From a virus (taxonomy: Duplodnaviria; Heunggongvirae; Uroviricota; Caudoviricetes): a stretch of DNA of 64,000 nucleotides. The notes under the pieces were generated by a model that worked only from the letters and a program-made list of their open reading frames with translations, was not told the origin of the DNA and did not search any database. The stretch lies in the IMG/VR virus record IMGVR_UViG_2609459792_000007; one strand, given 5' to 3'. Both the position numbers and the translations under genes were made by a program. Position 1 is the stretch's first letter. Every line of letters begins with the position of its first letter. Positions 13,682 to 34,448 of this stretch are shown here, piece after piece.

Positions 13682-13686
13682 CAATT

Positions 13687-13710: not shown

Positions 13711-13857
13711 TTAACAGCCATTGATTCTCGCCTAAAAATTCTAAGGCAGCACCTACCATTTAACCTTTACACAGCAGCCGTAGGCATTTAGGCTATATCA
13801 CATATAAGAAAACAAGTTGTTTCAGACAATAATAATAGACGCAAAGGGAACTCTCCA

Positions 13858-14526: not shown

Positions 14527-14885
14527 TGTCCATGAAAATGGGTGACCTAGCAAAGCGCAAAGAGCCTGATGCACCGGCTAAGAACACAACTCCTTTGCGC
14601 CAACCAGTCAGACCACAAGGACGCCCGACTCGTGGCAAAGAGAAAATTAAAAGCCGCACTATGTCACTGGAAGACGAATACTTCGAGCTTCTGGAAATGA
14701 TGAAGTTTATCCCTCGTTTCGAGAAGTTCACCCGCTCTGATGTGATTCGTGCTGCTATTTTCCATCTGGCAGAGAAGTCACCGCAGGAAATCGAGGACAT
14801 CGTGAAACTTAACGAGGCGATCACCGCTGCCGATGTCACGATGCGTACCGATGAAATCAAACGAGAGTTGATGAAGAAAGGTTAA
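14526..14885 (+). CDS. small ParB/ParG-like centromere-binding protein (putative)
   Basis: 119 aa; basic N-terminal tail and a ribbon-helix-helix-like segment; start overlaps parA stop (ATGA-type coupling). Confidence 0.5.
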   Translation: MSMKMGDLAKRKEPDAPAKNTTPLRQPVRPQGRPTRGKEKIKSRTMSLEDEYFELLEMMKFIPRFEKFTRSDVIRAAIFHLAEKSPQEIEDIVKLNEAITAADVTMRTDEIKRELMKKG

Positions 14886-14890
14886 AAATC

Positions 14891-14921
14891 ATGCATTGGC
14901 GCGTACATTGCGCCAATGCAT
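14891..14921 (-). terminator. terminator hairpin for the minus-strand GIY-YIG gene
   Basis: 12-bp stem (ATGCATTGGCGC / GCGCCAATGCAT) with 7-nt loop; the A-run upstream on + gives a U-tract for the minus-strand transcript. Confidence 0.5.
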
Positions 14922-14937
14922 AACTACAGTGTCAGCT

Positions 14938-15705: not shown

Positions 15706-15816
15706 TATTGCATCTCTTAGCTACTGACTAATGCGTTCTATTTTACACATAAGTTTTTAATCAATTTAACAGGCTCAAAGTGTAGAGCTTCTGGGCGTCT
15801 AAGACGACAAGTTATG

Positions 15817-15871
15817 CCTGCTTCTGTATATATAAATAATAAGTAACTTATTAAATATATACGGAAGCAGG
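15817..15871. repeat. long AT-looped hairpin element, copy A
   Basis: CCTGCTTCTGTATATAT..ATATATACGGAAGCAGG, 17-bp arms with one G-T pair; near-identical copy at 62065-62123; followed by T-rich tract. Confidence 0.7.
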
Positions 15872-20772: not shown

Positions 20773-22091
20773 AAAAGTTGATCGCACTTAAGCATAAGCT
20801 GGACGAAATGAAAGCTATGGGAACCAATGCAAAAAAAGAGGCATTGGCCAACATGGATGACTTTGAACAAAGCATGGTTTCATTGATGCTCAACCCTTTC
20901 ATCCGTTTTGGGGTAAAGAAATACAAAGTGGCAGAGCCGCTTAGTGAGTCCGTCCCAAGTGACGAAAAAGCCATTGATGTACTGAATAAGCTGGCCTCTC
21001 GCGAGCTGACGGGGAACGCAGCAATAGTTGCTGTTGAGTCTATCGTAGCGTCAATGTGCGCCGATGGGCAGGACGTGTTCCGTCGTTTCCTCTTAAAAGA
21101 CCCGAAAGCAGGTGTTGGGATTAGCCTATGCAACAAGGTTTTTGAGAATCCCATTCCGAAATTCGAGGTGCAGCTGGCGTCACCGTATAAAGAAAAAGGC
21201 GACAAATACCCCTTCAAGCCAAATCCTAAAGCAAAATGGCCGATGATTGGCAGTCTTAAGCTCGATGGTTTGCGAGTAATTTGCGAGGTTATTGTTGACG
21301 AGGAAGAGGTTAACTTCCTTTCTCGTACTGGTAATCCAATCACGTCTCTCGATCACCTAAAGCCAGCAATGCTCGAATTAGGCAAACTTTCAGGCCACAA
21401 ACACATCTTCTTCGATGGTGAAGGAACAGCCGGTTCATTTAACCAGTCCGTATCTGCATTGCGCAAAAAGAACGTGCAGGCAATTGGCGCTATTTATCAT
21501 GTTTTCGACTTCTTCCTACCGGAATGGCGGGCACAGGCTAAATCCAAAGAGTATGCAAAGACAGGTATGAAGCTGAAAGAGCGCCTGGCTATGCTGGTGG
21601 CGTTGTTCAAAAACGATCGCAGTGAAGGCTACGGACAAGACATTCACCTGCATCCGTTCTATATCATCCATAGCCACGAAGATTTCATCGAACGCTTTAT
21701 GAAACGCCTGGACGATAACGAAGAAGGGGAGATGGGCAAAGATCCGAACTCTGTTTACGAGTTTAAACGTACCCGCAGCTGGTGGAAGTTAAAAGACGAA
21801 GATTCAGAAGATGGTGAAATTATCGACTTTGAGCCGGGCGACCCGGACTCTGGTTTTGCCAACACACTTGGAAAAATTGTTATTCGTCTTGAAAACGGCG
21901 TCATCGTTCGTGCGAGCGGCATTAAGCATAAATATCTGGACGAGATCTGGAACAACAAAGAGAAGTACCGTGGTCGTATTGTTGAGGTTCATTGTCACGA
22001 GAAAACGCCGGATGGCAGCTTACGCCACCCACGACTGAAATGGCCGCGTTGCTTACGCGATACAGAAGATCGAATCGGAGATAAAGAATGA
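20769..22091 (+). CDS. ATP-dependent DNA ligase
   Basis: 440 aa; adenylation motif SLKLDGLRV (KxDG). Confidence 0.7.
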   Translation: MKKLIALKHKLDEMKAMGTNAKKEALANMDDFEQSMVSLMLNPFIRFGVKKYKVAEPLSESVPSDEKAIDVLNKLASRELTGNAAIVAVESIVASMCADGQDVFRRFLLKDPKAGVGISLCNKVFENPIPKFEVQLASPYKEKGDKYPFKPNPKAKWPMIGSLKLDGLRVICEVIVDEEEVNFLSRTGNPITSLDHLKPAMLELGKLSGHKHIFFDGEGTAGSFNQSVSALRKKNVQAIGAIYHVFDFFLPEWRAQAKSKEYAKTGMKLKERLAMLVALFKNDRSEGYGQDIHLHPFYIIHSHEDFIERFMKRLDDNEEGEMGKDPNSVYEFKRTRSWWKLKDEDSEDGEIIDFEPGDPDSGFANTLGKIVIRLENGVIVRASGIKHKYLDEIWNNKEKYRGRIVEVHCHEKTPDGSLRHPRLKWPRCLRDTEDRIGDKE

Positions 22092-22267
22092 TGCTCGGCT
22101 GGATGATTGCATTTTTAGCGGTTGGTTTTTTAATCGGTATTGTGGTGATGTCCAGTTGCATCAATGACTACATTAAAAGCGGTGTTATAGAACGACGCGG
22201 TCGTATTTATCGCATTGTAGAAATAACCCACACAGTGAAGGAGATTAAGGATGATCGTATTAAGTAA
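22088..22267 (+). CDS. small membrane protein (59 aa, below ORF-track cutoff)
   Basis: Read from sequence: MMLGWMIAFLAVGFLIGIVVMSS..GRIYRIVEITH; one TM helix then a basic tail; paralogous pattern to the two small genes that follow. Confidence 0.4.
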   Translation: MMLGWMIAFLAVGFLIGIVVMSSCINDYIKSGVIERRGRIYRIVEITHTVKEIKDDRIK

Positions 22268-22466
22268 GCGGGAGAAGGAAACGCTTCATGAAATCAGTAA
22301 GTGGCCGGAGTTCCCTGAGTACTGGAAGCCTAAAACGCGGGCTAAGTTAGAGCGGTTAGGGTTGGTTGCAAACGTTTCTGAAACGTGGTGTTCGGCCAAC
22401 TACCAGTTAACTGATAAAGGGAAAGTATTGCTACAGCAATTAGTAGAATCAGGAGCGTTAAAATGA
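22251..22466 (+). CDS. hypothetical protein
   Basis: 71-aa ORF; no motif recognised. Confidence 0.4.
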   Translation: MIVLSKREKETLHEISKWPEFPEYWKPKTRAKLERLGLVANVSETWCSANYQLTDKGKVLLQQLVESGALK

Positions 22467-22615
22467 TTCCATACATCTCATTAGCTTTTATGGGTGGCTT
22501 CCTTATTGGCTTCGGCATCTGTCGTGATTTAATTAAGCAGGAACTTAAAACCAAAACACTGTGCATCGGAAAGCGTGTGTATCGGGTAGTTCATGAAACA
22601 AAGGTTAGAAAATGA
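22463..22615 (+). CDS. small membrane protein (50 aa, below ORF-track cutoff)
   Basis: Read from sequence: MIPYISLAFMGGFLIGFGICRD..GKRVYRVVHETK; TM helix plus basic tail. Confidence 0.4.
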   Translation: MIPYISLAFMGGFLIGFGICRDLIKQELKTKTLCIGKRVYRVVHETKVRK

Positions 22616-22902
22616 GCAATTTAACTTCTTGGGACTGGTGGTTGGTCACCTATTTCTTAGCGGCTGGAGTAGCATTCGCCTTTTACGTAGGTCAGTTAGT
22701 CGTAAAACTGTTGCTGATTAAATTTGCTAGTCATAAACGTATCGATGATGGTCTGTGGCGTCTTGGCACCTTGGTGGAAACTCGCTACGGGCAACTTAAG
22801 GAGAACGAAACCATTACTATCCAAGCGAAACGATTCACTGCCACCATCACAAGAACACCTAGTCGTAGAGTGGCCTTGATCAAAAAAGTCACAACCGAAT
22901 AA
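22612..22902 (+). CDS. small membrane protein
   Basis: 96 aa; N-terminal TM helix (WWLVTYFLAAGVAFAFYVG), then ..LGTLVETRYG.. Confidence 0.45.
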   Translation: MSNLTSWDWWLVTYFLAAGVAFAFYVGQLVVKLLLIKFASHKRIDDGLWRLGTLVETRYGQLKENETITIQAKRFTATITRTPSRRVALIKKVTTE

Positions 22903-23681
22903 AAATACAATGATAAGTATTTACTTACTTATCTTATATGTATAAGATGACTTTGTTTTCGTTGAGACGCGACTGTTTGAACTTAAATACAAGTGCAAAC
23001 GAAGAAGTCTATCTGGCAGTAGCCTAATAAGCCAAACACCAGCGAGGTCAGTTTCCAGCCTCGTTACCGAAATGGGACACACTGAGCGAGTGTGATTGCA
23101 GAACGCAGGAGGGAACATTCATGTTCCCTCCGATGAAGTAACAGAATGGGCGGTTGGTATATTTTCAACTCCATATGACTCCCGGATTCTTAGCCACTGA
23201 CCGCCCATTCTGTTACGTCATTTTGTTCAATTATGTCGTTTATACTGGGTTAAAAAGCGGCGACGTAGCCCGGCTGGTATGGTCAGCCAGCACACAACGT
23301 TGAGGCCATTACATTTTTATCAATTCTAAGGTTCTATTCACAGAGATACCGGCGAGCGTTGATATGTAACATGTTGGGCAAACATTCAATCGGAGTAGTG
23401 GCCTCAACGTTGTGAAAATAGGATAGTTGTGTAGGTTTAACCACTGTTGCCATTGGTACCTGTTTTCACAACAAATGATTCCATACATCACATTGTATAA
23501 ATTACAAAGTAGGTGCTGTCCTCAGAAACATCATCTACTTAAATAATTTGCCTTCTACTATTGAGCGAAGTCGAAAGCGTCTGGCACTAACGAAAAGTGC
23601 AAGTAGCGGTGCGTTTCCTGGCAGAAACTAACACCGCCGCGATTGGCACTGTTGAGTAATAAATACTGGCAGTGCTGAATT

Positions 23682-23756
23682 GATGGTGTAGCTCAGCGGT
23701 AGAGCAGTTGGCTGTTAACCAACTGGTCGGTGGTTCGAATCCACCCACCATCGCCA
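23682..23756 (+). tRNA. tRNA-Asn (GTT)
   Basis: Cloverleaf read by hand: acceptor GATGGTG/CACCATC, D-arm GCTC-AGCGGTA-GAGC, anticodon loop CTGTTAA, T-arm GGTGG-TTCGAAT-CCACC, CCA encoded. Confidence 0.85.
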
Positions 23757-23761
23757 ATTTA

Positions 23762-23848
23762 GGGGAGTTAGTCCGTAGAGGTAGCGGGGTAGACTGTAAA
23801 TCTACTGTCATGGAGACTCGGGTGGTTCGACTCCATCACTCCCCACCA
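23762..23848 (+). tRNA. tRNA-Tyr (GTA), long variable arm
   Basis: Acceptor GGGGAGT/ACTCCCC, anticodon stem-loop GTAGA-CTGTAAA-TCTAC, long variable arm, TTCGA T-loop, CCA encoded; D-arm pairing atypical. Confidence 0.7.
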
Positions 23849-23852
23849 AATT

Positions 23853-23928
23853 GCCGGTTTAGCTCAGTTGGTAGAGCGCCTGCCTTGTAAGCAGGATGTC
23901 AGCGGTTCGAGTCCGTTAACCGGCACCA
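23853..23928 (+). tRNA. tRNA-Thr (TGT)
   Basis: Acceptor GCCGGTT/AACCGGC, D-arm GCTC-AGTTGGTA-GAGC, anticodon loop CTTGTAA, T-loop TTCGAGT, CCA encoded. Confidence 0.85.
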
Positions 23929-24142
23929 ATACAACGATAAGATCATTACGGTTAATCGTCGTTCATGTGCACAATGACTGGTCGAAAGGTAGTGATCTTA
24001 CCGTTGTGGTGGATTCGCAGACTGATGCGATAGCTTTCTTGGATGTTAGGGAAATGCGGCCGCAAATCTTCCCTTTCGCGAGCGGTGATCGTCCGTAGTC
24101 CTAATTGGCTGCACCGTATGCCGGAGATTCAGTACCGGCCAC

Positions 24143-24229
24143 CACAACGGCCGGAGAGTAGGGAGCATGGTGCTCAAGCGGTCTTGAAAACCGTCCCATT
24201 GCGCAAGCGATGATGGTTCGATTCCATTA
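24143..24229 (+). tRNA. tRNA-Ser (TGA), class II
   Basis: Acceptor GGAGAGT/ACTCTCC, anticodon stem-loop GCGGT-CTTGAAA-ACCGT, long variable arm, T-loop TTCGATT, CCA encoded; D-arm atypical. Confidence 0.65.
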
Positions 24230-24396
24230 CTCTCCGCCAGACACAGCGTTGAGCGGTTTGGCCTTTTAATCAACTCGATTAAGACTCCGCTAACATAAAC
24301 CAGACCGCTCAACGCTGTGATAGACAATTACGGCAGACGTTCTTAACCATAGCTTGCTAACATCCTAGCAACACTTTTTTTCAGCGCAAAATTCAA

Positions 24397-24418
24397 AGGG
24401 GCTTCGGCCCCTTTTTTG
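24397..24418 (+). terminator. rho-independent terminator after the tRNA cluster
   Basis: AGGGGC-TTCG-GCCCCT followed by TTTTTT. Confidence 0.8.
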
Positions 24419-24460
24419 CAACTGAAAGAGTCAAGTCTACGAACTTTGTAGGGAGAAATA

Positions 24461-24811
24461 ATGACCAGCAAAGAGAACACACCACTAAAAGTCACCCCTG
24501 AACACATTGAACAACTCATTCAAAGTGAACATTATTTCACTGCATATGATGCCAGCCACGGGGATAACTTCATCTCTGTTTACAATTCAAAAACAGATAT
24601 CGACAAAGGTCATGAGTCGTTAAAACTCTTAACGTTCTGCGTTATGGTTCTCAAAAATGGATATACCGTAACGGGAAAATCTGCGTGCGTAAGACCAGAA
24701 ATCTTCAACTTTGATGTTGGTCGTGAGTACGCTCGAAAAGATGCTATCGATCAAATCTGGCCCCTGGAAGGCTATCTCCTGAAGCAAAAGTGGCATGAGG
24801 CAAAGCAATGA
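24461..24811 (+). CDS. hypothetical protein
   Basis: 116-aa ORF; no motif recognised with confidence. Confidence 0.5.
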   Translation: MTSKENTPLKVTPEHIEQLIQSEHYFTAYDASHGDNFISVYNSKTDIDKGHESLKLLTFCVMVLKNGYTVTGKSACVRPEIFNFDVGREYARKDAIDQIWPLEGYLLKQKWHEAKQ

Positions 24812-25053
24812 CGATCACTATCTACGGACGAGATAACTGCTCATACTGCAAACGTGCGGTCGAGCTGGCGAAGCAACTAAAGGGACATGGCTACGGTGAT
24901 TATGAGTACATAGACATCACCACTGCCGGTATCGACAAGAAAAAACTAAGTGAAATTGTTGGTAAACCGGTAGAGACTATCCCCCAAGTACTGATCGATG
25001 GTCAACCGATTGGCGGATACACAGAACTGGCTGCATACGTCAGCACCCTCTGA
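24808..25053 (+). CDS. glutaredoxin (Grx1/NrdC-like)
   Basis: 81 aa; CSYC active site; GKPVETIPQVLIDGQPIGGYTELAAYV closely parallels E. coli Grx1 (GKPVETVPQIFIDQQHIGGYTDFAAWV) as recalled. Confidence 0.85.
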   Translation: MTITIYGRDNCSYCKRAVELAKQLKGHGYGDYEYIDITTAGIDKKKLSEIVGKPVETIPQVLIDGQPIGGYTELAAYVSTL

Positions 25054-25057
25054 TTTT

Positions 25058-25083
25058 AACGGCTCACAGGAGCCGTTTTTATT
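25058..25083 (+). terminator. rho-independent terminator
   Basis: AACGGCTC-ACAG-GAGCCGTT followed by TTTATT. Confidence 0.7.
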
Positions 25084-25133
25084 ACCACCAAACTCACTCC
25101 CATTTCCCTTAAAATTCAAAAAACAACGTCAAA

Positions 25134-25164
25134 ATGATTCCATACCTACTATGTATGGAATCAT
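25134..25164. promoter_or_regulatory. perfect 12-bp inverted repeat upstream of the recombinase gene
   Basis: ATGATTCCATAC-CTACTAT-GTATGGAATCAT; half-site ATGATTCCATAC also at 22463 and 23478; 17-mer ATGTATGGAATCATTAG recurs at 31181-31197. Confidence 0.5.
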
Positions 25165-25263
25165 TAGTGAAAATGAGTTACTTTTACTCTTGATCCTATA
25201 AGAATCTATGCCTAATATACTGTTTACTTATACAGTGAATCGGCGTAACTCGGTGATTGTCAT

Positions 25264-26367
25264 ATGAAAAATAGCTTTGACAGAGCACGCGCTGCGGAGA
25301 ACACCTCAAAAGAGGCGATTGAGTATCTCGAAAGAGCATCTCAAATGCAGGCCGTTATGATCTCGCAGGTTAGCATTGATATGAGATTCTCGGACGCATT
25401 CATGTTATTCACTCGCTTATCTCTGCTGATAACCAGACGTCGGCCAGAGATCGCTGTTCATTGTATTTTGATACATGTTTTGCCGCACATTGCCGATGTA
25501 AAAGTAAGTGACATTAATAGGTTCATGGTGAACCAGCTGGTCAACCCACTAATACTGGATGGCAAAATTGTTATGGGCCGCCGCGTTTTCTCTCTGATGA
25601 AACAGTTCCTTAGCTGGTGCGCCTTCCAGGGGATGATAGACGTGTCACCGTTAAACGATATGTCACTAAACAAAGTTGCCGGTGGCGCAAAGCCCACACC
25701 TCGCGAGCGGAAGCTGACCGACGCAGAGGTATGGGTGTTCTGGAATATATGGGACTACTTCAATGTGTGCGCTGGTACAAAATGGGCGGCCAGGCTGTGT
25801 CTTGTATCAGCAAGACGACCTGACGAAGTACTGCGGGCTAAAAAAAGTGAGTTCAATCTTAAGCGTGGGGTTTGGAATCAAGGCAAGAGAAACAAGTCAG
25901 CACGTGAGCATTCGCTGCCTTTAAGCACATTAATGCGCACATGCATTGAAGAGTTGTTCGAATACGGTAAAGACAGCCAGTGGCTCGTGCCTTCGAATAA
26001 AAAAATCGGGAAAGACCTTCCTATGTCTAAAGTGGCAATAGCCCAGGCATTACGTCGTATTCTGGAACGACCAGAACTGATGGAGCTTGAGCCATTTACA
26101 CCCCGAGATTTGCGCCGTACTGCGCGTAGTTACTTCCCAGCATTAGGCATAAGCCAGGAGGTATCACGCAAAATCATGAACCACAGTCTTGAGGGGATAG
26201 ATCGGGTCTACGACCGGCACGATTATATGGACGAGATGCGAGACGCCTTAGAAAGTTTCTCGACGTACATCGCATCAATCGTAGAGCAACCGGATTTAGA
26301 CGAAATTGACCACAAATTCAAGGGAGATCGTCTATCAACAGAGCTTATTCGTGTAAATTTTTCATAG
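25264..26367 (+). CDS. tyrosine recombinase / integrase (P4-family catalytic domain, atypical N-terminus)
   Basis: 367 aa; C-terminal catalytic residues in RDLRRTARSYF and NHSLEGIDRVYDRHDY; N-terminal about 60 aa do not resemble the usual arm-binding domain. Confidence 0.75.
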   Translation: MKNSFDRARAAENTSKEAIEYLERASQMQAVMISQVSIDMRFSDAFMLFTRLSLLITRRRPEIAVHCILIHVLPHIADVKVSDINRFMVNQLVNPLILDGKIVMGRRVFSLMKQFLSWCAFQGMIDVSPLNDMSLNKVAGGAKPTPRERKLTDAEVWVFWNIWDYFNVCAGTKWAARLCLVSARRPDEVLRAKKSEFNLKRGVWNQGKRNKSAREHSLPLSTLMRTCIEELFEYGKDSQWLVPSNKKIGKDLPMSKVAIAQALRRILERPELMELEPFTPRDLRRTARSYFPALGISQEVSRKIMNHSLEGIDRVYDRHDYMDEMRDALESFSTYIASIVEQPDLDEIDHKFKGDRLSTELIRVNFS

Positions 26368-26748
26368 AGACTTTATGGCCTCAACAACCTTTTGTGATGC
26401 GCCTTTCTCTTTACCGAATCGCTCGTTATACGCAGCAAGAACCTGTTTTTCGTCCTCGTTAAGAGGAGCGGTGCCTTCTTTGTATAAAAATGCTGCGAGT
26501 TCAGGTTGGCGTTCTTCCAGCACCATCATCATAAGACGACTTGGTTCAATACCCAGCGCCAGCGCCAGCGGACGAACCTTATCGATAGGCAAAGGAATTT
26601 TGCCACTTTTAATTAAAGAAAGGTTGTTGGCATTTTTATAACCAATAAGTCTGGCTATTTGGGCCTGACTCATAGGTGAGGATTCAATCAGCCCTGCGAT
26701 AAAAGCAGCATAGCGACTTTCTATAAATTCAATCTTGTTGTCAGACAT
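26362..26748 (-). CDS. HTH (XRE/CI-like) transcriptional repressor
   Basis: 128 aa; helix-turn-helix QAQIARLIGYKNANNLSLIKSG; no S24 peptidase domain; divergent from the downstream + genes across an AT-rich intergenic region. Confidence 0.65.
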   Translation of the reverse strand: MSDNKIEFIESRYAAFIAGLIESSPMSQAQIARLIGYKNANNLSLIKSGKIPLPIDKVRPLALALGIEPSRLMMMVLEERQPELAAFLYKEGTAPLNEDEKQVLAAYNERFGKEKGASQKVVEAIKSL

Positions 26749-26999
26749 TGTTACAACCTTTGCGCGTTTAATTCTCTCTGGTAAGTGCTTACCGATATTA
26801 CATCAAAGGTTAGGGTTGTAAAGCTATTATCATTTTTTTCGGCAGGCACTTGTAAGACCGAGCAAAGGTCCATGCATGGAGAAAAACTAGCCCAAAATAG
26901 GTAAGAAAATTAACTTGCATCTGATATAGATGTATTCAGTATTGATACAAATTTTAGTAGTATTCCTTACCATAGTATAAGTTAGAATGGATTGATTGA

Positions 27000-27212
27000 A
27001 TGAAAACCACTATTTCCAGCCTAATCGCTCTTGAGATCGGACACGTACAGAAATTAGCTGATGAGTGTGTAGCTGACATCCTCACCGATCTACCGAATGA
27101 GCAGATTCAGGTTGGTGTGAATGACACAACTGGCTTTATATTCGAACTTAACAACAAACGCTTCACGCTTCTCAATACCGGCTCCGGGTCTTTAGCCGTC
27201 AGAATCTGTTAA
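27000..27212 (+). CDS. hypothetical protein
   Basis: 70-aa ORF divergent from the repressor gene; no motif recognised. Confidence 0.4.
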   Translation: MKTTISSLIALEIGHVQKLADECVADILTDLPNEQIQVGVNDTTGFIFELNNKRFTLLNTGSGSLAVRIC

Positions 27213-27310
27213 CCCCTCTTCTCCCTGCGCGAATGGCTTAGTTCCCTGTTCGCGCAGTGCTACATTAAACACACTAGTAAATAATTTGTTTTCATAACAA
27301 AGGATTAGCC

Positions 27311-29419
27311 ATGTCTAAAAAACGTTCCATCAAAGAGGTTCAGGACTTCCGTGACAGTGTAAAACGAGTAGTCGCTCTCCTTTCAGGTAAAAACATCCCT
27401 GTTGCAGAACGAGGGGACGACGCTTATGTACGCTATAACGATGATGGAGAGCCAATTCTCGTAAACATCCCATCAATCCCGGATAACGCAACACCGGCAT
27501 TGATGAATGCTGTGCGCGGATTTCTCGATCATGAGGTTGCTCACATTTTGTTTACCGATATTCGTGTGTCCAACAAAATGAGAGAAAAAGGACGCGTTCC
27601 TTCCTGGTCGCTATGGAATGCCTTAGAAGACGTGTTCATCGAGCGAAAAATGGGTCAGGTCTTTAACGGAACAAGACGTAATCTGATGGCAACTCAGCGC
27701 CTTATAATCGAAAAAGTCTTTAAACCAAAGGCTTCAGAGGCTATTGCTTATTGTGGCAAAGATCAGCGCGCGCTTTTTCTAAACTTCTTTCTCTGTCCGG
27801 TTGTAAGAGCCTGGGATGGCCAAGCACCGTTCGTAGATTTCATGGATGAATATTGGCCTGTCATTGAGAAACCAATTTCATTATTAAAAGAACATGGTAT
27901 CGATGTGGCCGTGCGTAACATGTCTTGCACCGAGGATTGTGTAAAGGTGGCTGCGACCATAGCTAAGATCCTCAAAGACACTGAAAGTGAAAGCAAAGGT
28001 AAGGAGTCAGCTCCGGGAAAAACTTCCGATCCTTCAGACGCTGACCAGACGGATGCCTCTGGAGAAAACAATGAAGACAACGAAGATCATGAGACACCCT
28101 CATCGTTAGATAATCACAAATCTATTAAATCAGAGTCACATAGTAAGCACAAACATGATAATAACGACAGTGATGATTCAGATAATCCTGAATCATCAGA
28201 AACAATATTCGATGATACAGAAAATGATAAAGCGGTATCAGATTCTGATGCTTCTGATAACGCGGCGTCAGAATCATTAACCGCTGACCACGAAAAAAGA
28301 AAAACGACAGAAGACGGCTCTTCAGACATTCCAACTCCGTCAAAAATGAGTCTGGAAGAGGCTTTAGAGGAGTTGGATAGCATGGAAGATGAAGTCGGAG
28401 GCATGACAGAAGATGCGCTATCCGAAACGATTAAAAGCGAGTTAACAGAAAGCTCGAAAAGCGAATACAGGCCATACAATCGCTCATACGACTTCATCGG
28501 CTCGATTGATCAGGCAGAAGCCCATATCAAACGGCTTATTAAAACATTCTCCGATATTGATTTAGGTGGATATCCAATCAGCCGTTATCGCATCGTTCCT
28601 GAAGGCAACCAACTCTTCGACAAATATATTGAAAAGCACCTTTCGTCAGGTGTTTCGTCGACGCTGGCAAAAGACCTGGAACGTGCAATAGCAAGCAGAA
28701 ACAGAGTTCAGTTTATACCTGGCCAGCGTCGGGGGCGCATTCATGGTTCAAGTATCTACAGATTAACAATGAATGATGATCGCGTGTTTCGTAAAAAAGA
28801 AGAATCTAAAGCCGTTAACGCCTGTGTTCAACAAGTGATTGATTTATCGGGTTCAATGAGTGGCGAAACGATAAAACTAGCTCTTGCAAGTGCATATACC
28901 ATCGCCGATGCACTTGATCGAATAAATGTTCCCAACATTATCACCGGCTTCACTACATTTGGCAGTCATATGGCAGCAGGAGAACTTAAGGCTATCAAAT
29001 ATGAGTTCTCTCGCTTTGAATCTTTAATGCTACCTATCATCAAAAATTGGAATGAAAAAGCAAATTCTCGCGAAGTTCGCTCACGTATGGGGTGCGTAGG
29101 CTACACATTCCCACTTCTTAATAACGTGGATGGTGAAAGCATAGCCAGCCTTGCATCGTTATTTTCCGGTCGCTTGGAGGACAGGAAGATCATGCTTGTT
29201 CTGAGCGATGGCGCGCCGTGGGCTGTTGGGAGAGGTTTTGACGCCCATTTGCGTTCGGTTACGAAGCAAATTGAAACGCAGACTGACATTGATTTGATGG
29301 CAATTGGCATCATGACTGATGCACCGGAGAGATTTTACGCAAATCATGCCCTGGTAACTAGTGTTGATAGTCTTGGTTCATCTGTAGTTACTGAACTATC
29401 TCGTATCATTTTGAAGTAA
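27311..29419 (+). CDS. CobT-like protein with C-terminal von Willebrand factor A domain
   Basis: 702 aa; long acidic Asp/Ser/Glu-rich linker; vWA MIDAS-like motif VIDLSGSMSG near the C-terminus. Confidence 0.65.
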   Translation: MSKKRSIKEVQDFRDSVKRVVALLSGKNIPVAERGDDAYVRYNDDGEPILVNIPSIPDNATPALMNAVRGFLDHEVAHILFTDIRVSNKMREKGRVPSWSLWNALEDVFIERKMGQVFNGTRRNLMATQRLIIEKVFKPKASEAIAYCGKDQRALFLNFFLCPVVRAWDGQAPFVDFMDEYWPVIEKPISLLKEHGIDVAVRNMSCTEDCVKVAATIAKILKDTESESKGKESAPGKTSDPSDADQTDASGENNEDNEDHETPSSLDNHKSIKSESHSKHKHDNNDSDDSDNPESSETIFDDTENDKAVSDSDASDNAASESLTADHEKRKTTEDGSSDIPTPSKMSLEEALEELDSMEDEVGGMTEDALSETIKSELTESSKSEYRPYNRSYDFIGSIDQAEAHIKRLIKTFSDIDLGGYPISRYRIVPEGNQLFDKYIEKHLSSGVSSTLAKDLERAIASRNRVQFIPGQRRGRIHGSSIYRLTMNDDRVFRKKEESKAVNACVQQVIDLSGSMSGETIKLALASAYTIADALDRINVPNIITGFTTFGSHMAAGELKAIKYEFSRFESLMLPIIKNWNEKANSREVRSRMGCVGYTFPLLNNVDGESIASLASLFSGRLEDRKIMLVLSDGAPWAVGRGFDAHLRSVTKQIETQTDIDLMAIGIMTDAPERFYANHALVTSVDSLGSSVVTELSRIILK

Positions 29420-29514
29420 TTAAAACAGCCTTAATGATAAGTAACTACTTACCATAGTTAATGGTATATTTATATAAGAACTTGAACGCTCATTAGAGAA
29501 CAAAGGAAAAGCGC

Positions 29515-30750
29515 ATGACTACTACTGCACTGCAAAATGATAAAAATCCTTCTGATTACCTTGTTTGCAAGTGGTGCGGCAAATCATTTCACTATTTTAA
29601 GTCCCATGTAGCCAATGGTAATTGCGAGGGCATTCCTGAGTCAGTAAAAGATGCCGATCCTGACACCGTACTGAAAATGTACACAACGCAGTTTCCAGAT
29701 GAACCAACGCTATCGAAAAAGGCACTTGATGCAATTCAAGCTAAACGTGCCGAGCAAAAAAGCGAAATGGCGAAATCTTCTGGCTTGACCAGTAGCCCAG
29801 GCTACACAGGCACAGTTGAGTACAAGACAGATCTGGTCGCAGCTCACGAACTGCTAAACGTAACGGTGGAAGAACTCGGAACAAAACGTGGGACGCCGCT
29901 CATGGTTAGCGTCAACGTCAATACGCCGTATCCAGAGTTCGTTCCAGAAGTGAAGAAGGGCTACGTATATGGCGACTTCGAACTTATCAAAGATATTTTC
30001 ATGATGCTTGAACTTGGCATACCTGGCTATTTGTGGGGTCATGCAGGAACAGGCAAATCGTCATTGCCTACACAGCTATGTGCTTTGCTCAATCGTCCGT
30101 TGATCCGTGCCCAACATACAGCATCAATGGAAGAGGCACATGTTACGGGGCAAATTCTGGCGCGTGATGGCTCTACGTATTTCGAGCCTGGCTTGCTTGC
30201 GCTCGCAATGAAGCATGGCTGGGTTTACCTCGCGGATGAATACGACTTTGCGTTTCCACAAATTCTTGGCGTGTATCAGCCAGTGCTGGAAGGTGAGGCG
30301 TTGGTCATCAAAGAGGCAACTCCAGAATGGCGTCGCATTACTCCGCATGAACGGTTTGCTTTCATTGGCACTGGCAACACAAACGGTTCTGGTGATGAAA
30401 CCGGCTTGTACCAGGGTACAAACATCCAGAACGCCGCGAACTTTTCACGTTTTGGCATCGTTTCGAATGTGAAATACATGAGCAAAGAGGCAGAGATCAA
30501 CATGTTGATAAATGCCGGTATCGTGGATGAATACGCAGAAAAGATGGTTAAGTTTGCCGGTATCGTTCGCGATGGATACGAAGAACACCTTATCAGTCAG
30601 CCAATTGGCCCTCGTGAACTTTTGTTGTCGGCCAAGATTGGAATGATGCGAGGCGACTTTGTGACAGGTATTGAGCGTTCTTTCATTAACAAACTCCCTT
30701 CAGCTTCTGCACAAGCGGCTCGTGAAGTTGTTCAAAAAATATTTGGTTAA
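29515..30750 (+). CDS. CobS/MoxR-like AAA+ ATPase
   Basis: 411 aa; Walker A GHAGTGKSS, Walker B VYLADEYD; N-terminal Cys/His cluster (CKWCGKSFHYFKSH..C); immediately downstream of the vWA partner. Confidence 0.7.
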   Translation: MTTTALQNDKNPSDYLVCKWCGKSFHYFKSHVANGNCEGIPESVKDADPDTVLKMYTTQFPDEPTLSKKALDAIQAKRAEQKSEMAKSSGLTSSPGYTGTVEYKTDLVAAHELLNVTVEELGTKRGTPLMVSVNVNTPYPEFVPEVKKGYVYGDFELIKDIFMMLELGIPGYLWGHAGTGKSSLPTQLCALLNRPLIRAQHTASMEEAHVTGQILARDGSTYFEPGLLALAMKHGWVYLADEYDFAFPQILGVYQPVLEGEALVIKEATPEWRRITPHERFAFIGTGNTNGSGDETGLYQGTNIQNAANFSRFGIVSNVKYMSKEAEINMLINAGIVDEYAEKMVKFAGIVRDGYEEHLISQPIGPRELLLSAKIGMMRGDFVTGIERSFINKLPSASAQAAREVVQKIFG

Positions 30751-30802
30751 TCGTGCGTAAAGGATGTTTCGGCTCTCTTATCGCTGCTTCTGAAACTGGT
30801 AA

Positions 30803-30829
30803 GGCTTGTCTGGTGTGTCCAGACAAGCC
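30803..30829. promoter_or_regulatory. perfect hairpin in the cobS-dnaE intergenic region
   Basis: GGCTTGTCTGG-TGTGT-CCAGACAAGCC (11-bp stem); no U-tract. Confidence 0.4.
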
Positions 30830-30929
30830 CGATTGTCACCAATCAGCAAAAGAAGTTGCGATTTCGATGCATGGGAAGTTCGTAGGCTTCCCCAATGACA
30901 AAATCAAAAAACCAGAAAGGTAAAAACAC

Positions 30930-33900
30930 ATGAAGGCACTGATGGTTCGAACTGACTTCTCACTTGGGGAGTCGGCTCTAAAAGCAGAAAACGCGGTGAA
31001 GATTGCCAGAGAAGCTGGCTACACCGCTGTAATTTCAGCAGATAGCATGAATATTGCGAGCGTTATTCCACTACAACGTGCCGCTGGTGACGACATGGCG
31101 GTTATTTGTGGTGTGAAACTAAACATTGTTGATGATCCCACATACGAGCACCGGGCTAAACTTGCTAAAGAATCTATGAGATGTATGGAATCATTAGAGC
31201 GGGGACGTAACTACTCGTTTACCGCTCTAATTAAAAATGAGCAAGGATATCGCGACATCTGCGAACTAATGACGGCGGCCAACACACGAGAACAGTTCTA
31301 CTTTGTACCGCGTCTCTCGCTCGAACAGTTGGTTTCTACATATGCCAAAGGCAACATCATCCTGCTTACTTCCGACATCGGTAGCGTGTTCCAACGCAAC
31401 GATTTTGCAAAAATCATAAGCACACTGATTACAGCGGGTGGAAAAGACAACTTCTATAGTGTGGTTTATCCGCACCCTACCCCATTCTACGACCAGATTA
31501 ACGTCCGGGCGATGAAAGTCGCCAGCGCATTGAAAATAGAGCCAGTGGCGTTCTATCCCGCTTATTACGAATCGATCGACGATGCAGACATTAAAGACAT
31601 TGCGCACATGGTTACGAACAACATAAAAATCGACCAGCCGCATCGTCTGCGTATCCCCCACCAGCGAGATAACGCCGTCAATGGTCGCCGCCATCTCCTT
31701 GAGGCGCTTAAAGCCTTCTCCGTTCGCATGGATGTGCCGGTAACAGCTGCAATGGCCTCAACAACGCAGGACTCCATTATCGAAGCCTGTACATGGCGCT
31801 GGCATGAATTGCCACCAGCACTGCCCAAGATGGCAGACGACGAGCCTGCAACGCTGATGAAACTGGCTGTTGCAGGGCTGCGCAAACGTCTTACCACAAA
31901 AGAGTTTGGCTACACACCACCGGCTTCTGAGAACAGGGTTTATGTTGAGCGACTTAAGTACGAAATGGACACGCTTACTCGCCTGGGATTTTGTGGTTAC
32001 TTCCTGATGGTACGCGATCTGATGAATCACAGCCGTGAAACTGGCATTCCTGTCGGGCCTGGTCGTGGTTCCTCTGCCGGTTCTCTGGTGGCGTGGTGCA
32101 TAGGCATAACCAACGTCGACCCAATCCGTCACGGTCTTCTGTTTGAGCGTTTCATCAACCCTGAGCGTCTCGACTTGCCGGATGCGGACTTGGACTTCAG
32201 CCAGGCACGTCGCCATGAGGTGATCGAGTATCTGAATGAACGCTACGGCGAAGATTACGTTGCAGGCATTCCGAACTTCACCTACCTGGGCGCAGCCTCT
32301 GCACTACGTGATACCGCTCGTATTTATGGTGTGGAGTCCGCAGATATGGCGGTATCAAAAGAACTGAAGAACGCTGAGGATGATAGCCTTCCATTGGAAG
32401 AACTGCGCGAACAACTGGCAAGTCTCGACAAATACGCAACAAAATATCCTGATGCATTCAATGCAGCCTGCAAGTTACAAAGCCTTATGCGTGGCTTTGG
32501 TAGACATGCGGCAGGGATGATCGTAGCAGGTGTTCCTCTGACAGAACGTACACCGGTTGAGCGCCGTGGTGACGCGCGTTGTATCGCATTTGACAAGCGT
32601 TACTGCGAGGCTATGGGCCTAATTAAGCTGGACGTGCTTGGCCTGGCAACTCTCGATTTGCTCGATAGTGCAAAACGCTACATAAAAGAGAACACAGGTG
32701 AAGATATCAATCTTGATGCCATTTCTCTTGAAGATCGCAAGGTGCTGGATGGTTTTGCTGCTGGGTACACTCAAGGTGTTTTCCAGCTTGAATCAGGCCC
32801 AATGCGCAAGCTGCTTAAAGATTTAGGTGGTGGAATTGAGCCAATGAGCTTTAAAACGGTCGTCGCTACAACTGCGCTCTTCCGGCCGGGGCCAATTCAA
32901 TCAGGCATGTTGGATGACTATGTTTCTGTCGCCAAAGGCTTTATGACGCCGGAATCATTACACCCCGTTCTTGATGAACTTACCGCGGAAACAAATGGCG
33001 TGATTCTCTATCAGGAACAGACGATGAACGCGACTCGATTGCTTGCCGGCTTCACAATGGCTGAAGCTGACGCTGTGCGTTCCGCAATCGGTAAGAAGAA
33101 CATGGAAAAAATGAAGAGCATGGGCGAGAAGTTCATCGTTCAGGCTCAAGCTGGCTGGATAGACGTTGAGCTGGAAGATGGCACTACACAGCGCATTCAC
33201 CGTGCGGAACATTTTAAATGCGAAGACGGAACTCTGAAAACTGTCGAAGAGGCACTTGAGCACGGCGCAAAACTACCTATAAACGCAGTACGCGTTACAG
33301 CGTCACATCCAGGGCTATCAGAGATGAAAGCGAAGGAGATCTGGACCGCATTCGAAAAGAATGGTGCCTACCAGTTCAACAAATCACACTCTGTTGCTTA
33401 CTCCTTAATCAGCTATCAATCTATGTGGTTGAAAACTCATTATCCCGCAGAGTTTTTCGCTGCTGCTCTCACTATTCTTGGCGAAGATAAACACCAGGGG
33501 CTGGTTAAAGATGCGCTGACCTATGGTATTCGCGTATTGCCACCAGACGTTAACGTGTCATCTAACCGAATTGAGATCCGCACGCTTGAAGATGGCAGCC
33601 AGGTGCTGTATGCGCCCTTCTCTGCTGTGAAGGGGTGTTCTGAGAATGGCTGCCAGGCCATCATGAGAGCGCGAGAAAAGGTTGGTGGCAAATTCGAGTC
33701 ACTTGCGCAATTCGAAGAAGCTGTCGAGAAACGTGCCTGTAATAGTCGAGTGCGCGAATCGCTGCAAAAAGTAGGGGCGTTTGCATCCATCGAGCCAGGT
33801 AGTCTGCCAGCAACTGATCCAGAGCGCCTCCGCGACCAGGCAGAATTGATGGGAAACCTTGTCATAGACGCAGTTAAAGCCTCACGTCCGTTTGAGATGA

Positions 33901-34448
33901 ACCCCAAACGATCGGCTGAAATTAACGCACTCATGACACGGATGGCGGCTGAAATGGGCTTAGGTGATGAACTAATCCGCCCCAGCATTGGTATTAAGCC
34001 GAAAATCATGATCATTCTGGACAATGCAAACGGCAATGATGCTCGAACCGGTTACTTCATGGAGAACGGATACGACGATTTTAAGGCCAAGCTGTTGACG
34101 GCTGGAGATTTGCGCATGGGCGATCTCTATGTCACAGGCGTTTGCAAAAAGGTGAAAGACAAAGAAAAGGACTACACCAAAGACGAGATCGGCCAGTTCA
34201 CCGACTTTATGCGTGAAGAGATCAATCTGGTACGTCCGACCTATGTGCTGACGTGTGGCAGTCGGGCAACGGCATTGTTTAACAACAAAAACAAGCCATC
34301 CGATTTAGTCGGTAGGAAGGAGTATCTTCCAGACCTTGACGTTACAGTCTTTTACGGGTTTAACCCCAACATTCTTTACTTCAGACCTGAAGAGGGAGAA
34401 CGACTAGAAGCGATATTAGCCGACGTAGCAGAAACTATTAAGTCGTGA
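30930..34448 (+). CDS. dnaE: DNA polymerase III alpha-like (DnaE-type, N-terminal PHP domain)
   Basis: 1172 aa; polymerase core segment GFCGYFLMVRDLMNHSRETGIPVGPGRGSSAGSLVAWCIGITNVDPI and downstream DnaE-like blocks. Confidence 0.8.
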   Translation: MKALMVRTDFSLGESALKAENAVKIAREAGYTAVISADSMNIASVIPLQRAAGDDMAVICGVKLNIVDDPTYEHRAKLAKESMRCMESLERGRNYSFTALIKNEQGYRDICELMTAANTREQFYFVPRLSLEQLVSTYAKGNIILLTSDIGSVFQRNDFAKIISTLITAGGKDNFYSVVYPHPTPFYDQINVRAMKVASALKIEPVAFYPAYYESIDDADIKDIAHMVTNNIKIDQPHRLRIPHQRDNAVNGRRHLLEALKAFSVRMDVPVTAAMASTTQDSIIEACTWRWHELPPALPKMADDEPATLMKLAVAGLRKRLTTKEFGYTPPASENRVYVERLKYEMDTLTRLGFCGYFLMVRDLMNHSRETGIPVGPGRGSSAGSLVAWCIGITNVDPIRHGLLFERFINPERLDLPDADLDFSQARRHEVIEYLNERYGEDYVAGIPNFTYLGAASALRDTARIYGVESADMAVSKELKNAEDDSLPLEELREQLASLDKYATKYPDAFNAACKLQSLMRGFGRHAAGMIVAGVPLTERTPVERRGDARCIAFDKRYCEAMGLIKLDVLGLATLDLLDSAKRYIKENTGEDINLDAISLEDRKVLDGFAAGYTQGVFQLESGPMRKLLKDLGGGIEPMSFKTVVATTALFRPGPIQSGMLDDYVSVAKGFMTPESLHPVLDELTAETNGVILYQEQTMNATRLLAGFTMAEADAVRSAIGKKNMEKMKSMGEKFIVQAQAGWIDVELEDGTTQRIHRAEHFKCEDGTLKTVEEALEHGAKLPINAVRVTASHPGLSEMKAKEIWTAFEKNGAYQFNKSHSVAYSLISYQSMWLKTHYPAEFFAAALTILGEDKHQGLVKDALTYGIRVLPPDVNVSSNRIEIRTLEDGSQVLYAPFSAVKGCSENGCQAIMRAREKVGGKFESLAQFEEAVEKRACNSRVRESLQKVGAFASIEPGSLPATDPERLRDQAELMGNLVIDAVKASRPFEMNPKRSAEINALMTRMAAEMGLGDELIRPSIGIKPKIMIILDNANGNDARTGYFMENGYDDFKAKLLTAGDLRMGDLYVTGVCKKVKDKEKDYTKDEIGQFTDFMREEINLVRPTYVLTCGSRATALFNNKNKPSDLVGRKEYLPDLDVTVFYGFNPNILYFRPEEGERLEAILADVAETIKS

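What the first reader, a model, noticed from the sequence alone, without database searches (positions are those of the whole stretch)
27311..30750. CobT-like vWA protein and CobS-like AAA+ ATPase pair
A 702-aa protein with an acidic linker and C-terminal vWA domain is followed by an AAA+ ATPase with an N-terminal Cys/His cluster. The pair resembles cobaltochelatase CobS/CobT subunits, but no cobalamin pathway is present, so its role in a phage-plasmid is unexplained; a chaperone-like or nucleoprotein remodelling function in replication or virion assembly is possible.
Basis: partly seen in the sequence, partly recalled or inferred. Interest (0 to 1): 0.5.

Follow-up and report, generated by a model that had tools for sequence, protein, structure and literature searches.

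The report
Phage CobT/CobS-like ATPase–vWA gene pair
Two adjacent genes of an E. coli phage-plasmid encode relatives of the cobalt-chelatase helper proteins CobT and CobS; they sit among the DNA-replication genes and almost certainly do not make vitamin B12, and this pair is already annotated and discussed in the literature, with its real job still unknown.

Summary
Both ORFs are real: 27311-29419 (702 aa) and 29515-30750 (411 aa). The first protein has the CobT N-domain, an acidic linker and a CobT_C/vWA domain with an intact MIDAS motif. The second is a MoxR-class AAA_5 ATPase with intact Walker motifs.

The window is an SSU5-type phage-plasmid, up to 99.8% identical to E. coli plasmids that already carry these annotations. 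Viral cobST clusters and MoxR–(metallopeptidase-vWA) pairs are published, so the object is already known.

Three details were added here:
- The Cys/His cluster is a Ros/MucR-type zinc finger.
- The CobT-like N-domain is zincin-like and keeps HExxH (142 of 146 homologs). Bacterial CobT has lost it (1 of 74).
- The pair lies beside replication genes in phage lineages that use three different polymerases.

Neither protein reaches the CobS/CobT equivalog cut-offs. The element carries no cob genes, and E. coli has no de novo B12 pathway.

Most likely this is an ATP-driven remodelling, possibly proteolytic, complex of the early/replication programme. That function is inferred, not shown. Interest is modest.

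The parts
26362..26748 (-). Context: 128-aa regulator gene, transcribed divergently from the operon that holds the pair. It is the putative lysogeny repressor.
   Evidence: ORF. PGAP names it 'transcriptional regulator'. Phage Cyrano CYRAN_45 is annotated 'putative repressor, HTH' and is listed at 10x local background in the LF82 lysogen (PMC9928086). There is no Pfam hit at E<=0.001.
27000..27212 (+). Conserved 70-aa ORF, the first gene of the rightward operon. Function unknown.
   Evidence: phrog_2627 E 5.8e-41. It is annotated as a hypothetical protein in relatives.
27311..29419 (+). CobT-like protein, 702 aa: zincin-like N-domain, acidic linker, vWA/MIDAS C-domain.
   Evidence: PF06213 3e-27 and PF11775 5.7e-83. 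phrog_1576 6e-301. TIGR01651 scores 69 bits against a cut-off of 759. Solved CobT 9uka E 2.4e-13, C-terminal half only.
27311..27994 (+). N-terminal zincin-like domain (residues 1-228). It holds HEVAH (residues 74-78, nt 27530-27544) and the invariant residues N103, E106, D107 and E111.
27986..28660 (+). Acidic, Ser/Asp/Glu-rich, poorly conserved linker (about residues 226-450).
   Evidence: Composition. Mean column conservation 0.04-0.37 with many gaps.
28784..29413 (+). vWA domain (residues 492-701). The MIDAS motif D511-x-S513-x-S515 lies at nt 28841-28855, with T548/T549 and D633.
   Evidence: PF11775. D511, S513, S515 and D633 are 100% conserved and T549 is 97% conserved. It aligns to solved CobT vWA structures 21vt and 9uka.
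29515..30750 (+). CobS-like MoxR-class AAA+ ATPase, 411 aa, with an N-terminal zinc finger.
   Evidence: AAA_5 2e-15. phrog_249 2e-106. TIGR01650 scores 85 bits against a cut-off of 558.55. Solved CobS 9ujv E 1.8e-25 over residues 142-411. AF2 pLDDT 87.5. Foldseek top hits are NorQ and CbbQ at E about 1e-16.
29548..29760 (+). Ros/MucR-type zinc-finger domain (residues 12-82). Proposed ligands are C18, C21, H31 and C37, with H26 also conserved.
   Evidence: C18, C21, H26 and H31 are 92-98% conserved in 112 homologs. Profile A1 has Ros (PDB 2jsp) as its best hit, E 6e-4. 17 of 23 family members hit PF05443, best E 1.5e-7. All 112 sequences have either H36 or C37. The AF2 model is confident over residues 12-80.
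29938..30750 (+). AAA+ module (residues 142-411). Walker A lies at nt 30037-30060 and Walker B at nt 30223-30240.
   Evidence: Motifs. K181, D241, E242, N288, N290, R312, R352 and R367 are invariant in 28 sequences of 44-81% identity to the window protein.
30753..30923 (+). Conserved 56-aa Cys-rich ORF between the CobS-like gene and dnaE. Function unknown.
   Evidence: phrog_6337 E 1.7e-35. It is annotated as a hypothetical protein in relatives.
30930..34448 (+). Context: DNA polymerase III alpha (DnaE), the next gene downstream on the same strand.
   Evidence: PHP, DNA_pol3_alpha, finger and HHH_6 domains. No + strand terminator-like site lies between 27000 and 31000.

Best explanation
The two genes encode a viral 'CobST-like' two-component machine.

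- The CobS-like protein is a MoxR-class AAA+ ATPase. By analogy with CobS, NorQ and CbbQ it probably forms a hexameric ring.
- Its partner uses a MIDAS-containing vWA domain to dock on the ATPase and/or hold a client protein.
- They are homologs, not functional equivalents, of cobaltochelatase CobS/CobT. In E. coli there is no CobN and no corrin substrate, so they do not make B12.
- They are transcribed rightward from the region next to the repressor-like gene, on the same strand as dnaE.
- The partner's N-domain is zincin-like and keeps the HExxH...E signature that bacterial CobT has lost.
- The ATPase carries a Ros/MucR-type zinc finger that canonical CobS lacks.

Most likely the complex uses ATP to remodel, and probably cleave, a protein client at the onset of lytic or plasmid DNA replication. 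The client could be a phage replisome component or a host nucleoid or replication protein. The zinc finger would serve as a targeting module for DNA or for a protein.

Shown: domain identities, motif conservation, gene order, absence of cob genes. Inferred: complex formation, timing of expression, protease activity, identity of the client.
For: Domains and motifs:
- Domain assignments.
- Catalytic ATPase and MIDAS residues are invariant across homologs (ATPase set 44-81% identical to the window protein, CobT-like set 30-59%).
- HExxH is kept in 142 of 146 phage-type homologs. Only 1 of 74 canonical CobT genes next to canonical cobS has any HExxH. The aligned canonical motif is D-S-M-A-L-R.
- Zinc finger: profile hit to Ros 2jsp, 17 of 23 members hit PF05443, and the fourth ligand is H36 or C37 in all 112 sequences.

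Not an equivalog of the chelatase subunits:
- 85 bits against a cut-off of 558.55, and 69 bits against a cut-off of 759.
- No cob genes in the whole element, and the RNR is class Ia.
- E. coli needed heterologous cobN, cobS and cobT plus about 30 other genes to make B12 (PMC6249242).

Replication context in lineages with three different polymerases:
- DnaE-type siphoviruses and phage-plasmids, down to 35-45% identity.
- T4-like cyanophage S-PM2: gp47-gp46-'peptidase' (a CobT-like protein)-CobS-gp45-gp44.
- ICP2-like vibriophage, upstream of the helicase and PolA genes.

Other:
- No + strand terminator-like site between the pair and dnaE.
- In the LF82 lysogen the adjacent repressor-like gene is listed among genes expressed above background, and CYRAN_47/48 are not.
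Against: - No experiment addresses function.
- Conserved gene order within the DnaE-phage group may reflect common descent rather than functional linkage.
- The zinc-finger domain is not basic (mean net charge -0.2, median pI 6.8). It is absent from the cyanophage and vibriophage CobS-like proteins and degenerate in a Rhizobium phage. DNA tethering therefore cannot be a general requirement.
- HExxH could bind a metal without catalysing proteolysis.
- The promoter scan found no site above chance, so the operon structure is inferred from spacing only.
Confidence: 0.5

Rival explanations
1. Virion-assembly chaperone and protease. The MoxR-vWA pair would assist head or tail assembly, and the metallopeptidase domain would process structural proteins. 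Iyer et al. proposed this for T4-like jumbo phages, by analogy with the ATV MoxR-vWA system.
For: - Published proposal for the same architecture (PMC7824862).
- HExxH is conserved.
- The head module of this element has portal, scaffold and major capsid genes but no dedicated prohead protease.
Against: - In this element and all its relatives examined, the pair lies in the replication/early block, far from the structural genes and next to the repressor-like gene.
- Scaffold-type capsids often need no protease (general knowledge).
- The Y. pestis pMT1-type plasmids keep an intact copy. As far as I know pMT1 is not known to produce phage particles; that rests on my own knowledge and was not checked here.
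Confidence: 0.18
2. Metal-cofactor insertion or activation chaperone for a phage enzyme. Candidates are NrdAB, the PHP domain of DnaE, or thymidylate synthase. This would parallel NorQ/NorD (iron into NO reductase) or CbbQ/CbbO (Rubisco activase).
For: - The closest solved folds are NorQ and CbbQ, and the closest solved sequences are CobS itself. All are MoxR-vWA systems that mature or reactivate metalloenzymes.
- The element encodes nrdAB, dnaE and a glutaredoxin.
Against: - This does not explain the strictly conserved HExxH or the zinc finger.
- The polymerase type differs between lineages that carry the pair, so DnaE cannot be the universal client.
Confidence: 0.15
3. Genuine cobaltochelatase subunits, an auxiliary metabolic gene pair. 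They would hijack a host CobN to boost cobalamin synthesis (Liu et al. 2021).
For: - Homology to CobS/CobT.
- Published hypothesis for viral cobST (PMC8651126).
Against: - Scores lie far below the equivalog cut-offs.
- The element has no cob genes and no B12-dependent RNR.
- E. coli lacks the de novo pathway and needed heterologous cobN/S/T (PMC6249242).
- The pair has an intact HExxH and an extra zinc finger that canonical proteins lack.
- The pair is a core gene set across Escherichia, Klebsiella, Yersinia and Acinetobacter phage-plasmids.
Confidence: 0.05
4. Counter-defence or host-takeover factor. The complex would degrade or disable a host protein, such as a nucleoid silencer or a defence protein, early in infection.
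For: - Early-region position.
- Protease-like motif.
- The zinc-finger type is that of MucR xenogeneic silencers.
Against: - No similarity to known defence or anti-defence families (PADLOC).
- The weak AcrIIA26 hit covers only 47 residues.
- Being a strictly conserved core gene across very different hosts is unusual for counter-defence genes.
Confidence: 0.1

Closest known systems
Aerobic cobaltochelatase subunits CobS/CobT (Alphaproteobacteria; PDB 9ujv, 9uka, 21vt)
   Same: - Same AAA_5 ATPase core (E 2e-25).
- Same CobT_C vWA domain with MIDAS.
- Homologous CobT N-domain.
- Acidic linker and adjacent genes.
   Different: - Far below the equivalog cut-offs.
- Gene order is T then S, rather than S then T.
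- The phage CobT-like protein keeps HExxH where the canonical protein has D-S-M-A-L-R.
- The phage ATPase has a roughly 100-residue zinc-finger extension that canonical CobS lacks.
- There is no CobN and no pathway.
Viral cobST clusters (Liu et al. 2021, PMC8651126), including cyanophage cobS plus 'peptidase'
   Same: - Same two-gene cluster in tailed viruses.
- The S-PM2 'peptidase' has the same HExxH / ED..IE / acidic linker / DxSGS layout.
- Core-gene status in its phage group.
   Different: - The cyanophage and ICP2-like CobS proteins lack the Ros/MucR zinc finger.
- The host here has no CobN to hijack.
MoxR AAA+ / (metallopeptidase-vWA) pair of T4-like jumbo phages (Iyer et al. 2021, PMC7824862), and the ATV MoxR-vWA tail-development system cited there
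   Same: Same architecture: a MoxR ATPase plus a vWA protein with an N-terminal metallopeptidase domain.
   Different: That paper proposes a role in virion assembly. Here the context is the replication/early block. ATV lacks the peptidase domain, as stated in that paper.
NorQ/NorD and CbbQ/CbbO MoxR-vWA remodellers
   Same: Best structural matches for the ATPase (Foldseek E about 1e-16, TM about 0.85 on the target). The partner likewise has a vWA/MIDAS domain.
   Different: Those partners are not known to me to carry a zincin-like domain or a zinc finger, which is my own knowledge and was not checked here. Their clients are respiratory or carbon-fixation enzymes that are absent from this element.
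Ros/MucR prokaryotic C2H2 zinc finger (PF05443; PDB 2jsp)
   Same: Same C-x2-C-x9-H-x4-H spacing in the family consensus, followed by the T-x-E-x-Y motif.
   Different: - Here the finger is N-terminal to an ATPase rather than C-terminal in a small DNA-binding regulator.
- The domain is not basic.
- The window copy has a 12-residue insert and Cys37 as its fourth ligand, and does not hit PF05443 on its own.

Membership tests
Cobaltochelatase CobS (TIGR01650 equivalog) | MoxR-class AAA_5 ATPase core with Walker A and B motifs | tested here: met
   AAA_5 2e-15; motifs; solved CobS E 2e-25.
Cobaltochelatase CobS (TIGR01650 equivalog) | Score at or above the curated equivalog cut-off | tested here: not met
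   84.9 bits against a cut-off of 558.55.
Cobaltochelatase CobS (TIGR01650 equivalog) | Works with CobN on hydrogenobyrinic acid a,c-diamide, so CobN and the pathway must be present | tested here: not met
   No cob genes are annotated in the element. E. coli needs heterologous cobN/S/T and the rest of the pathway (PMC6249242). The host chromosome itself was not searched.
Cobaltochelatase CobT (TIGR01651 equivalog) | CobT N-domain plus CobT_C vWA domain with MIDAS | tested here: met
   PF06213 scores 96 bits (cut-off 26.1) and PF11775 scores 278 bits (cut-off 21). MIDAS residues are conserved.
Cobaltochelatase CobT (TIGR01651 equivalog) | Score at or above the curated equivalog cut-off | tested here: not met
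   69.1 bits against a cut-off of 759.05.
MoxR-vWA remodelling pairs | MoxR-class AAA+ fold encoded next to a vWA/MIDAS protein | tested here: met
   Foldseek NorQ/CbbQ E about 1e-16. The genes are adjacent, 95 nt apart.
MoxR-vWA remodelling pairs | Physical ATPase-vWA complex and ATP-dependent action on a client | not testable with these tools
   No multimer prediction or biochemistry was available.
Viral cobST / MoxR-(metallopeptidase-vWA) pair | Adjacent T then S genes in a tailed-virus genome, with HExxH N-terminal to the vWA domain | tested here: met
   Same layout in S-PM2, JSF27, Nican01 and RHph_N2_6.
Zincin metallopeptidases | HExxH on a helix plus a downstream acidic third ligand | tested here: met
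   H74, E75 and H78 lie on helix 62-81. E106, D107 and E111 lie on helix 98-117. All are invariant.
Zincin metallopeptidases | Zincin fold | tested here: inconclusive
Zincin metallopeptidases | Zinc binding and peptidase activity | not testable with these tools
   Needs biochemistry.
Ros/MucR zinc finger (PF05443) | C-x2-C-x9-H-x4-H ligand spacing and profile similarity | tested here: met
   At family level, 17 of 23 members hit PF05443 (best E 1.5e-7) and the profile has Ros 2jsp as best hit at E 6e-4. The window copy is a variant with Cys37 as fourth ligand and has no PF05443 hit of its own.
Ros/MucR zinc finger (PF05443) | DNA binding through a basic surface | tested here: not met
   The domain is near neutral: mean net charge -0.2, median pI 6.8. 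DNA binding itself was not testable.

The most novel reading that the evidence does not exclude
The phage pair may be the ancestral, catalytically intact form of this machine: a zinc-finger-targeted, ATP-driven protease/remodeller of the replication programme. On this reading, alphaproteobacterial cobaltochelatase CobS/CobT is a protease-dead derivative exapted from a phage, not the source of a phage 'auxiliary metabolic gene'.

Supporting observations:
- HExxH is intact in 142 of 146 phage-type proteins, but present in only 1 of 74 canonical CobT proteins.
- The pair occurs across phages that use three different polymerases.

No rooted phylogeny was made.
Probability: 0.2. Interest if true: 0.7.

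Novelty: already known. Interest (0 to 1): 0.35.

Why it matters
CobS-like genes are core genes of marine cyanomyoviruses and of the SSU5, pHCM2 and pMT1 phage-plasmids of enteric pathogens. They are routinely counted as vitamin-B12 'auxiliary metabolic genes'.

If the pair is instead a replication-phase remodeller or protease, many virome annotations are wrong. That includes the outright name confusion seen in phage Cyrano. A conserved and possibly essential phage function would also remain to be discovered.

The HExxH contrast with bacterial CobT gives a simple, testable handle: point mutants and complementation.

Tried and rejected
- **Viral contig scan.** A scan with the CobS-like alignment returned only SSU5-type loci of 77-100% identity, so it gave no independent context. 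I used exact-protein look-ups of distant homologs and the phage collection instead.
- **Promoter/terminator scan, 26300-31000.** Counts were at or below chance. No promoter could be assigned.
- **Rfam.** No family matched.
- **PADLOC.** Only a negligible DrmE hit (E 7e-4, no stretch passing on its own).
- **N-domain profile against PDB.** It did not reach canonical CobT. The correspondence had to be shown by hhalign against a genomic CobT (E 0.002, probability only 14%) and by Pfam PF06213.
- **AcrIIA26 hit (E 0.0057, 47 residues).** Set aside as too short to interpret.
- **First count of canonical CobT motifs.** The selecting regular expression required the canonical motif, so the count was circular. 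I repeated it without that condition.
- **DNA tethering by the zinc finger.** I had considered this the main mechanism and downgraded it after the charge analysis and after finding the finger absent from cyanophage and vibriophage homologs.
Full report
**What is there**

The window holds two + strand ORFs exactly as described: 27311-29419 (702 aa) and 29515-30750 (411 aa). Each has an AAGGA ribosome-binding site 6-10 nt upstream of its ATG.

The surrounding gene order is:
- a tyrosine integrase (25264-26367);
- a leftward 128-aa regulator gene (26362-26748);
- then, rightward: a 70-aa ORF, the two genes in question, a 56-aa Cys-rich ORF, and a 1172-aa DnaE polymerase.

No + strand terminator-like site lies between 27000 and 31000. 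The simple promoter scan found nothing above chance.

**Identity of the element**

The 4.1-kb region is 99.8% identical to E. coli and Shigella plasmids of about 110 kb. It is 96-98% identical to Escherichia phages Cyrano, CMS-2020a and PhiR41_1, and 75% identical to Salmonella phage SSU5. So the window is an SSU5-type phage-plasmid.

The CobT-like protein is found in about 1020 plasmid records, nearly all 100-115 kb. They come from Klebsiella, Escherichia, Acinetobacter, Enterobacter, Yersinia pestis (pMT1 type), Salmonella and others. These records already call the genes 'cobalamin biosynthesis protein CobT' or 'porphyrin biosynthesis protein', and 'AAA family ATPase'.

**Checking the domain claims**

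The 702-aa protein:
- It matches Pfam CobT (PF06213, E 3e-27, residues 9-292) and CobT_C, the CobT vWA domain (PF11775, E 5.7e-83, residues 492-701).
- It matches solved CobT structures over the C-terminal half.
- MIDAS residues D511, S513, S515 and D633 are 100% conserved, and T549 is 97% conserved, among 146 homologs of 30-59% identity.
- The linker is Ser/Asp/Glu-rich and poorly conserved.

The 411-aa protein:
- It matches AAA_5 and solved CobS (E 2e-25, residues 142-411).
- Walker A, Walker B and several Asn and Arg residues are invariant.
- Its AlphaFold model (pLDDT 87.5) is closest to the MoxR-class ATPases NorQ and CbbQ.

**Is it CobS/CobT?**

It is homologous but not equivalent.
- NCBIfam equivalog models score 85 bits (cut-off 558.55) for CobS and 69 bits (cut-off 759.05) for CobT.
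- No cobalamin gene is annotated anywhere in a near-identical 111-kb element. Its ribonucleotide reductase is the B12-independent class Ia.
- E. coli needed heterologous cobN, cobS and cobT plus the rest of a roughly 30-gene pathway to make B12 (PMC6249242).

**The Cys/His cluster is a Ros/MucR-type zinc finger**

- C18, C21, H26 and H31 are 92-98% conserved in 112 homologs down to 43% identity.
- The family consensus has the Ros spacing C-x2-C-x9-H-x4-H.
- A profile of the segment has Ros (PDB 2jsp) as its best PDB hit, at E 6e-4.
- 17 of 23 members match PF05443 individually, best E 1.5e-7. Precomputed Pfam hits list PF05443 for two homologs.
- The fourth ligand is His36 in 80 sequences and Cys37 in the 34 that carry a 12-residue insert, the window copy among them. 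All 112 sequences have one or the other.
- The domain is modelled confidently and is followed by a disordered linker.
- Canonical CobS has no such extension.

Caveats:
- The domain is not basic (mean net charge -0.2), so DNA binding is not assured.
- It is degenerate in a Rhizobium phage.
- It is absent from the cyanophage and vibriophage homologs.

**The CobT-like N-domain is zincin-like with an intact HExxH**

- H74, E75, H78, N103, E106, D107 and E111 are invariant in a diverse alignment.
- HExxH is present in 142 of 146 homologs.
- The domain model (pLDDT 91) shows a three-stranded sheet, then the HExxH helix, then a helix carrying E106 and E111.
- I recovered canonical cobS-cobT loci from alphaproteobacterial genomes. 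The Sinorhizobium CobT aligns D-S-M-A-L-R against D-H-E-V-A-H.
- Only 1 of 74 canonical CobT ORFs has any HExxH upstream of the MIDAS motif.

So bacterial CobT carries a motif-dead version of a domain that stays intact in the viral proteins.

**Genomic context elsewhere**

- Homologs of 45% identity from environmental contigs of about 100 kb keep this order: CobT-like, CobS-like, (sigma70_r2-like gene), DnaE, gp32, 5'-3' exonuclease, RecA. Pseudomonas phage Nican01 and Rhizobium phage RHph_N2_6 do the same.
- In the T4-like cyanophage S-PM2, cobS is preceded by a 740-aa 'peptidase'. That protein has HEVGH, NVIEDARIE, an acidic linker and DWSGSM, so it is CobT-like. The pair lies between gp46/gp47 and gp45/gp44.
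- In the ICP2-like vibriophage JSF27, the pair lies upstream of the helicase and PolA genes.

The pair therefore accompanies replication genes in lineages with three different polymerases.

In the E. coli LF82 lysogen, the adjacent repressor-like gene (CYRAN_45) is listed as expressed above background. CYRAN_47 and CYRAN_48 are not listed (PMC9928086).

**What is already published**

- Liu et al. 2021 reported that cobST clusters are widespread in tailed viruses. They noted that the cyanophage 'peptidase' is cobT, and proposed that the viral proteins hijack host CobN (PMC8651126).
- Iyer et al. 2021 described a MoxR ATPase plus metallopeptidase-vWA pair in T4-like jumbo phages. They proposed a role in virion assembly and processing, citing the ATV precedent (PMC7824862).
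- cobS is a core gene of cyanomyoviruses, and its function there is stated to be unknown (PMC3037559, PMC9983427).

I found no paper that links phage CobS to a Ros/MucR finger.

**Interpretation**

The best-supported reading is a MoxR-class ATPase with a vWA/MIDAS-zincin partner. Together they would remodel, and perhaps cleave, a client protein during the early/replication programme. This is not a cobaltochelatase.

The virion-assembly reading cannot be excluded, because the head module has a scaffold but no dedicated protease. The gene position argues against it. The CobN-hijack reading is very unlikely in this host. A metal-insertion chaperone role fits the family theme but leaves HExxH and the zinc finger unexplained.

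**Verdict**

This is a real and correctly recognised gene pair, but one that is already known and annotated. The open question is its function. The HExxH contrast and the zinc-finger assignment sharpen that question without answering it.

Noticed in passing
window 26966-26976 and 29448-29458 (+); 44268-44278 and 44308-44318 (-): The 11-mer CTTACCATAGT occurs exactly twice on the + strand. One copy lies 24 nt upstream of the 70-aa ORF and the other 57 nt upstream of the CobS-like ATG. Two one-mismatch copies lie on the - strand, in the region that maps by coordinate offset to the repA gene of NZ_CP020118. That is 4 matches against 0.56 expected. It may be a phage-specific promoter or operator element.
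   Followed up: partly
window 27225-27257 (+): A GC-rich 12-bp hairpin without a T-tract lies between the 70-aa ORF and the CobT-like gene. The 103-nt intergenic RNA folds at -22.8 kcal/mol, z -2.97. No Rfam family matches. A second small hairpin overlaps the CobT-like Shine-Dalgarno sequence.
   Followed up: partly
window 30753-30923 (+): A conserved 56-aa Cys-rich ORF (contains CLVCPDKPDCH; phrog_6337, E 1.7e-35) fills the gap between the CobS-like gene and dnaE. In marine relatives and in Rhizobium phage RHph_N2_6, this position instead holds a sigma70_r2-like gene of about 215-224 aa plus further small ORFs (a 167-181 aa ORF alone in L087 and Nican01).
   Followed up: no
L002 (phage Cyrano OV696614) 12412-15851: Cyrano annotates the pair as 'dimethylbenzimidazole phosphoribosyltransferase' and 'cobalamin synthetase'. 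As I recall, those are the functions of the unrelated Salmonella CobT and CobS, so this looks like a gene-name collision and not a homology-based call. PMC9983427 likewise tabulates cyanophage cobS as 'cobalamin synthetase'.
   Followed up: partly
CobT-like residues 96-142 (window about 27596-27736): The N-domain profile gives a weak hit (E 0.0057, 47 residues) to the anti-CRISPR AcrIIA26 (PDB 9zq6_B), across the N-x-x-E-D-x-F-I-E motif. It is too short to interpret.
   Followed up: no
CobS-like homologs, residues 21 and 31 of the window protein (for example L090 6998-7450): Eight of the 112 aligned sequences have Asp at position 21 and eight have Tyr at position 31. At least one listed homolog and the Rhizobium phage RHph_N2_6 protein show both changes together. 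This recalls zinc-independent Ros homologs of Mesorhizobium; that comparison rests on my own knowledge and was not checked here.
   Followed up: no
L173 (NZ_CP020118) 21855-27516: The head module of the element has terminase, portal, a scaffold protein (DUF6651, phrog_206) and major capsid genes, but no recognisable prohead protease.
   Followed up: partly
L083-L088 DnaE genes versus window 30930-34448: The DnaE proteins of the environmental relatives carry a C-terminal UDG domain (PF03167). Pfam does not detect it in the window's DnaE at E<=0.001.
   Followed up: partly
CobT-like residues 386-394 (window about 28466-28492): Inside the otherwise unconserved linker, Y386 (97%) and D394 (99%) are conserved. 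By eye, the segment (YRPYNRSYDF) resembles one in the canonical Sinorhizobium CobT (YAVYTREFDE). It may be a docking motif.
   Followed up: no
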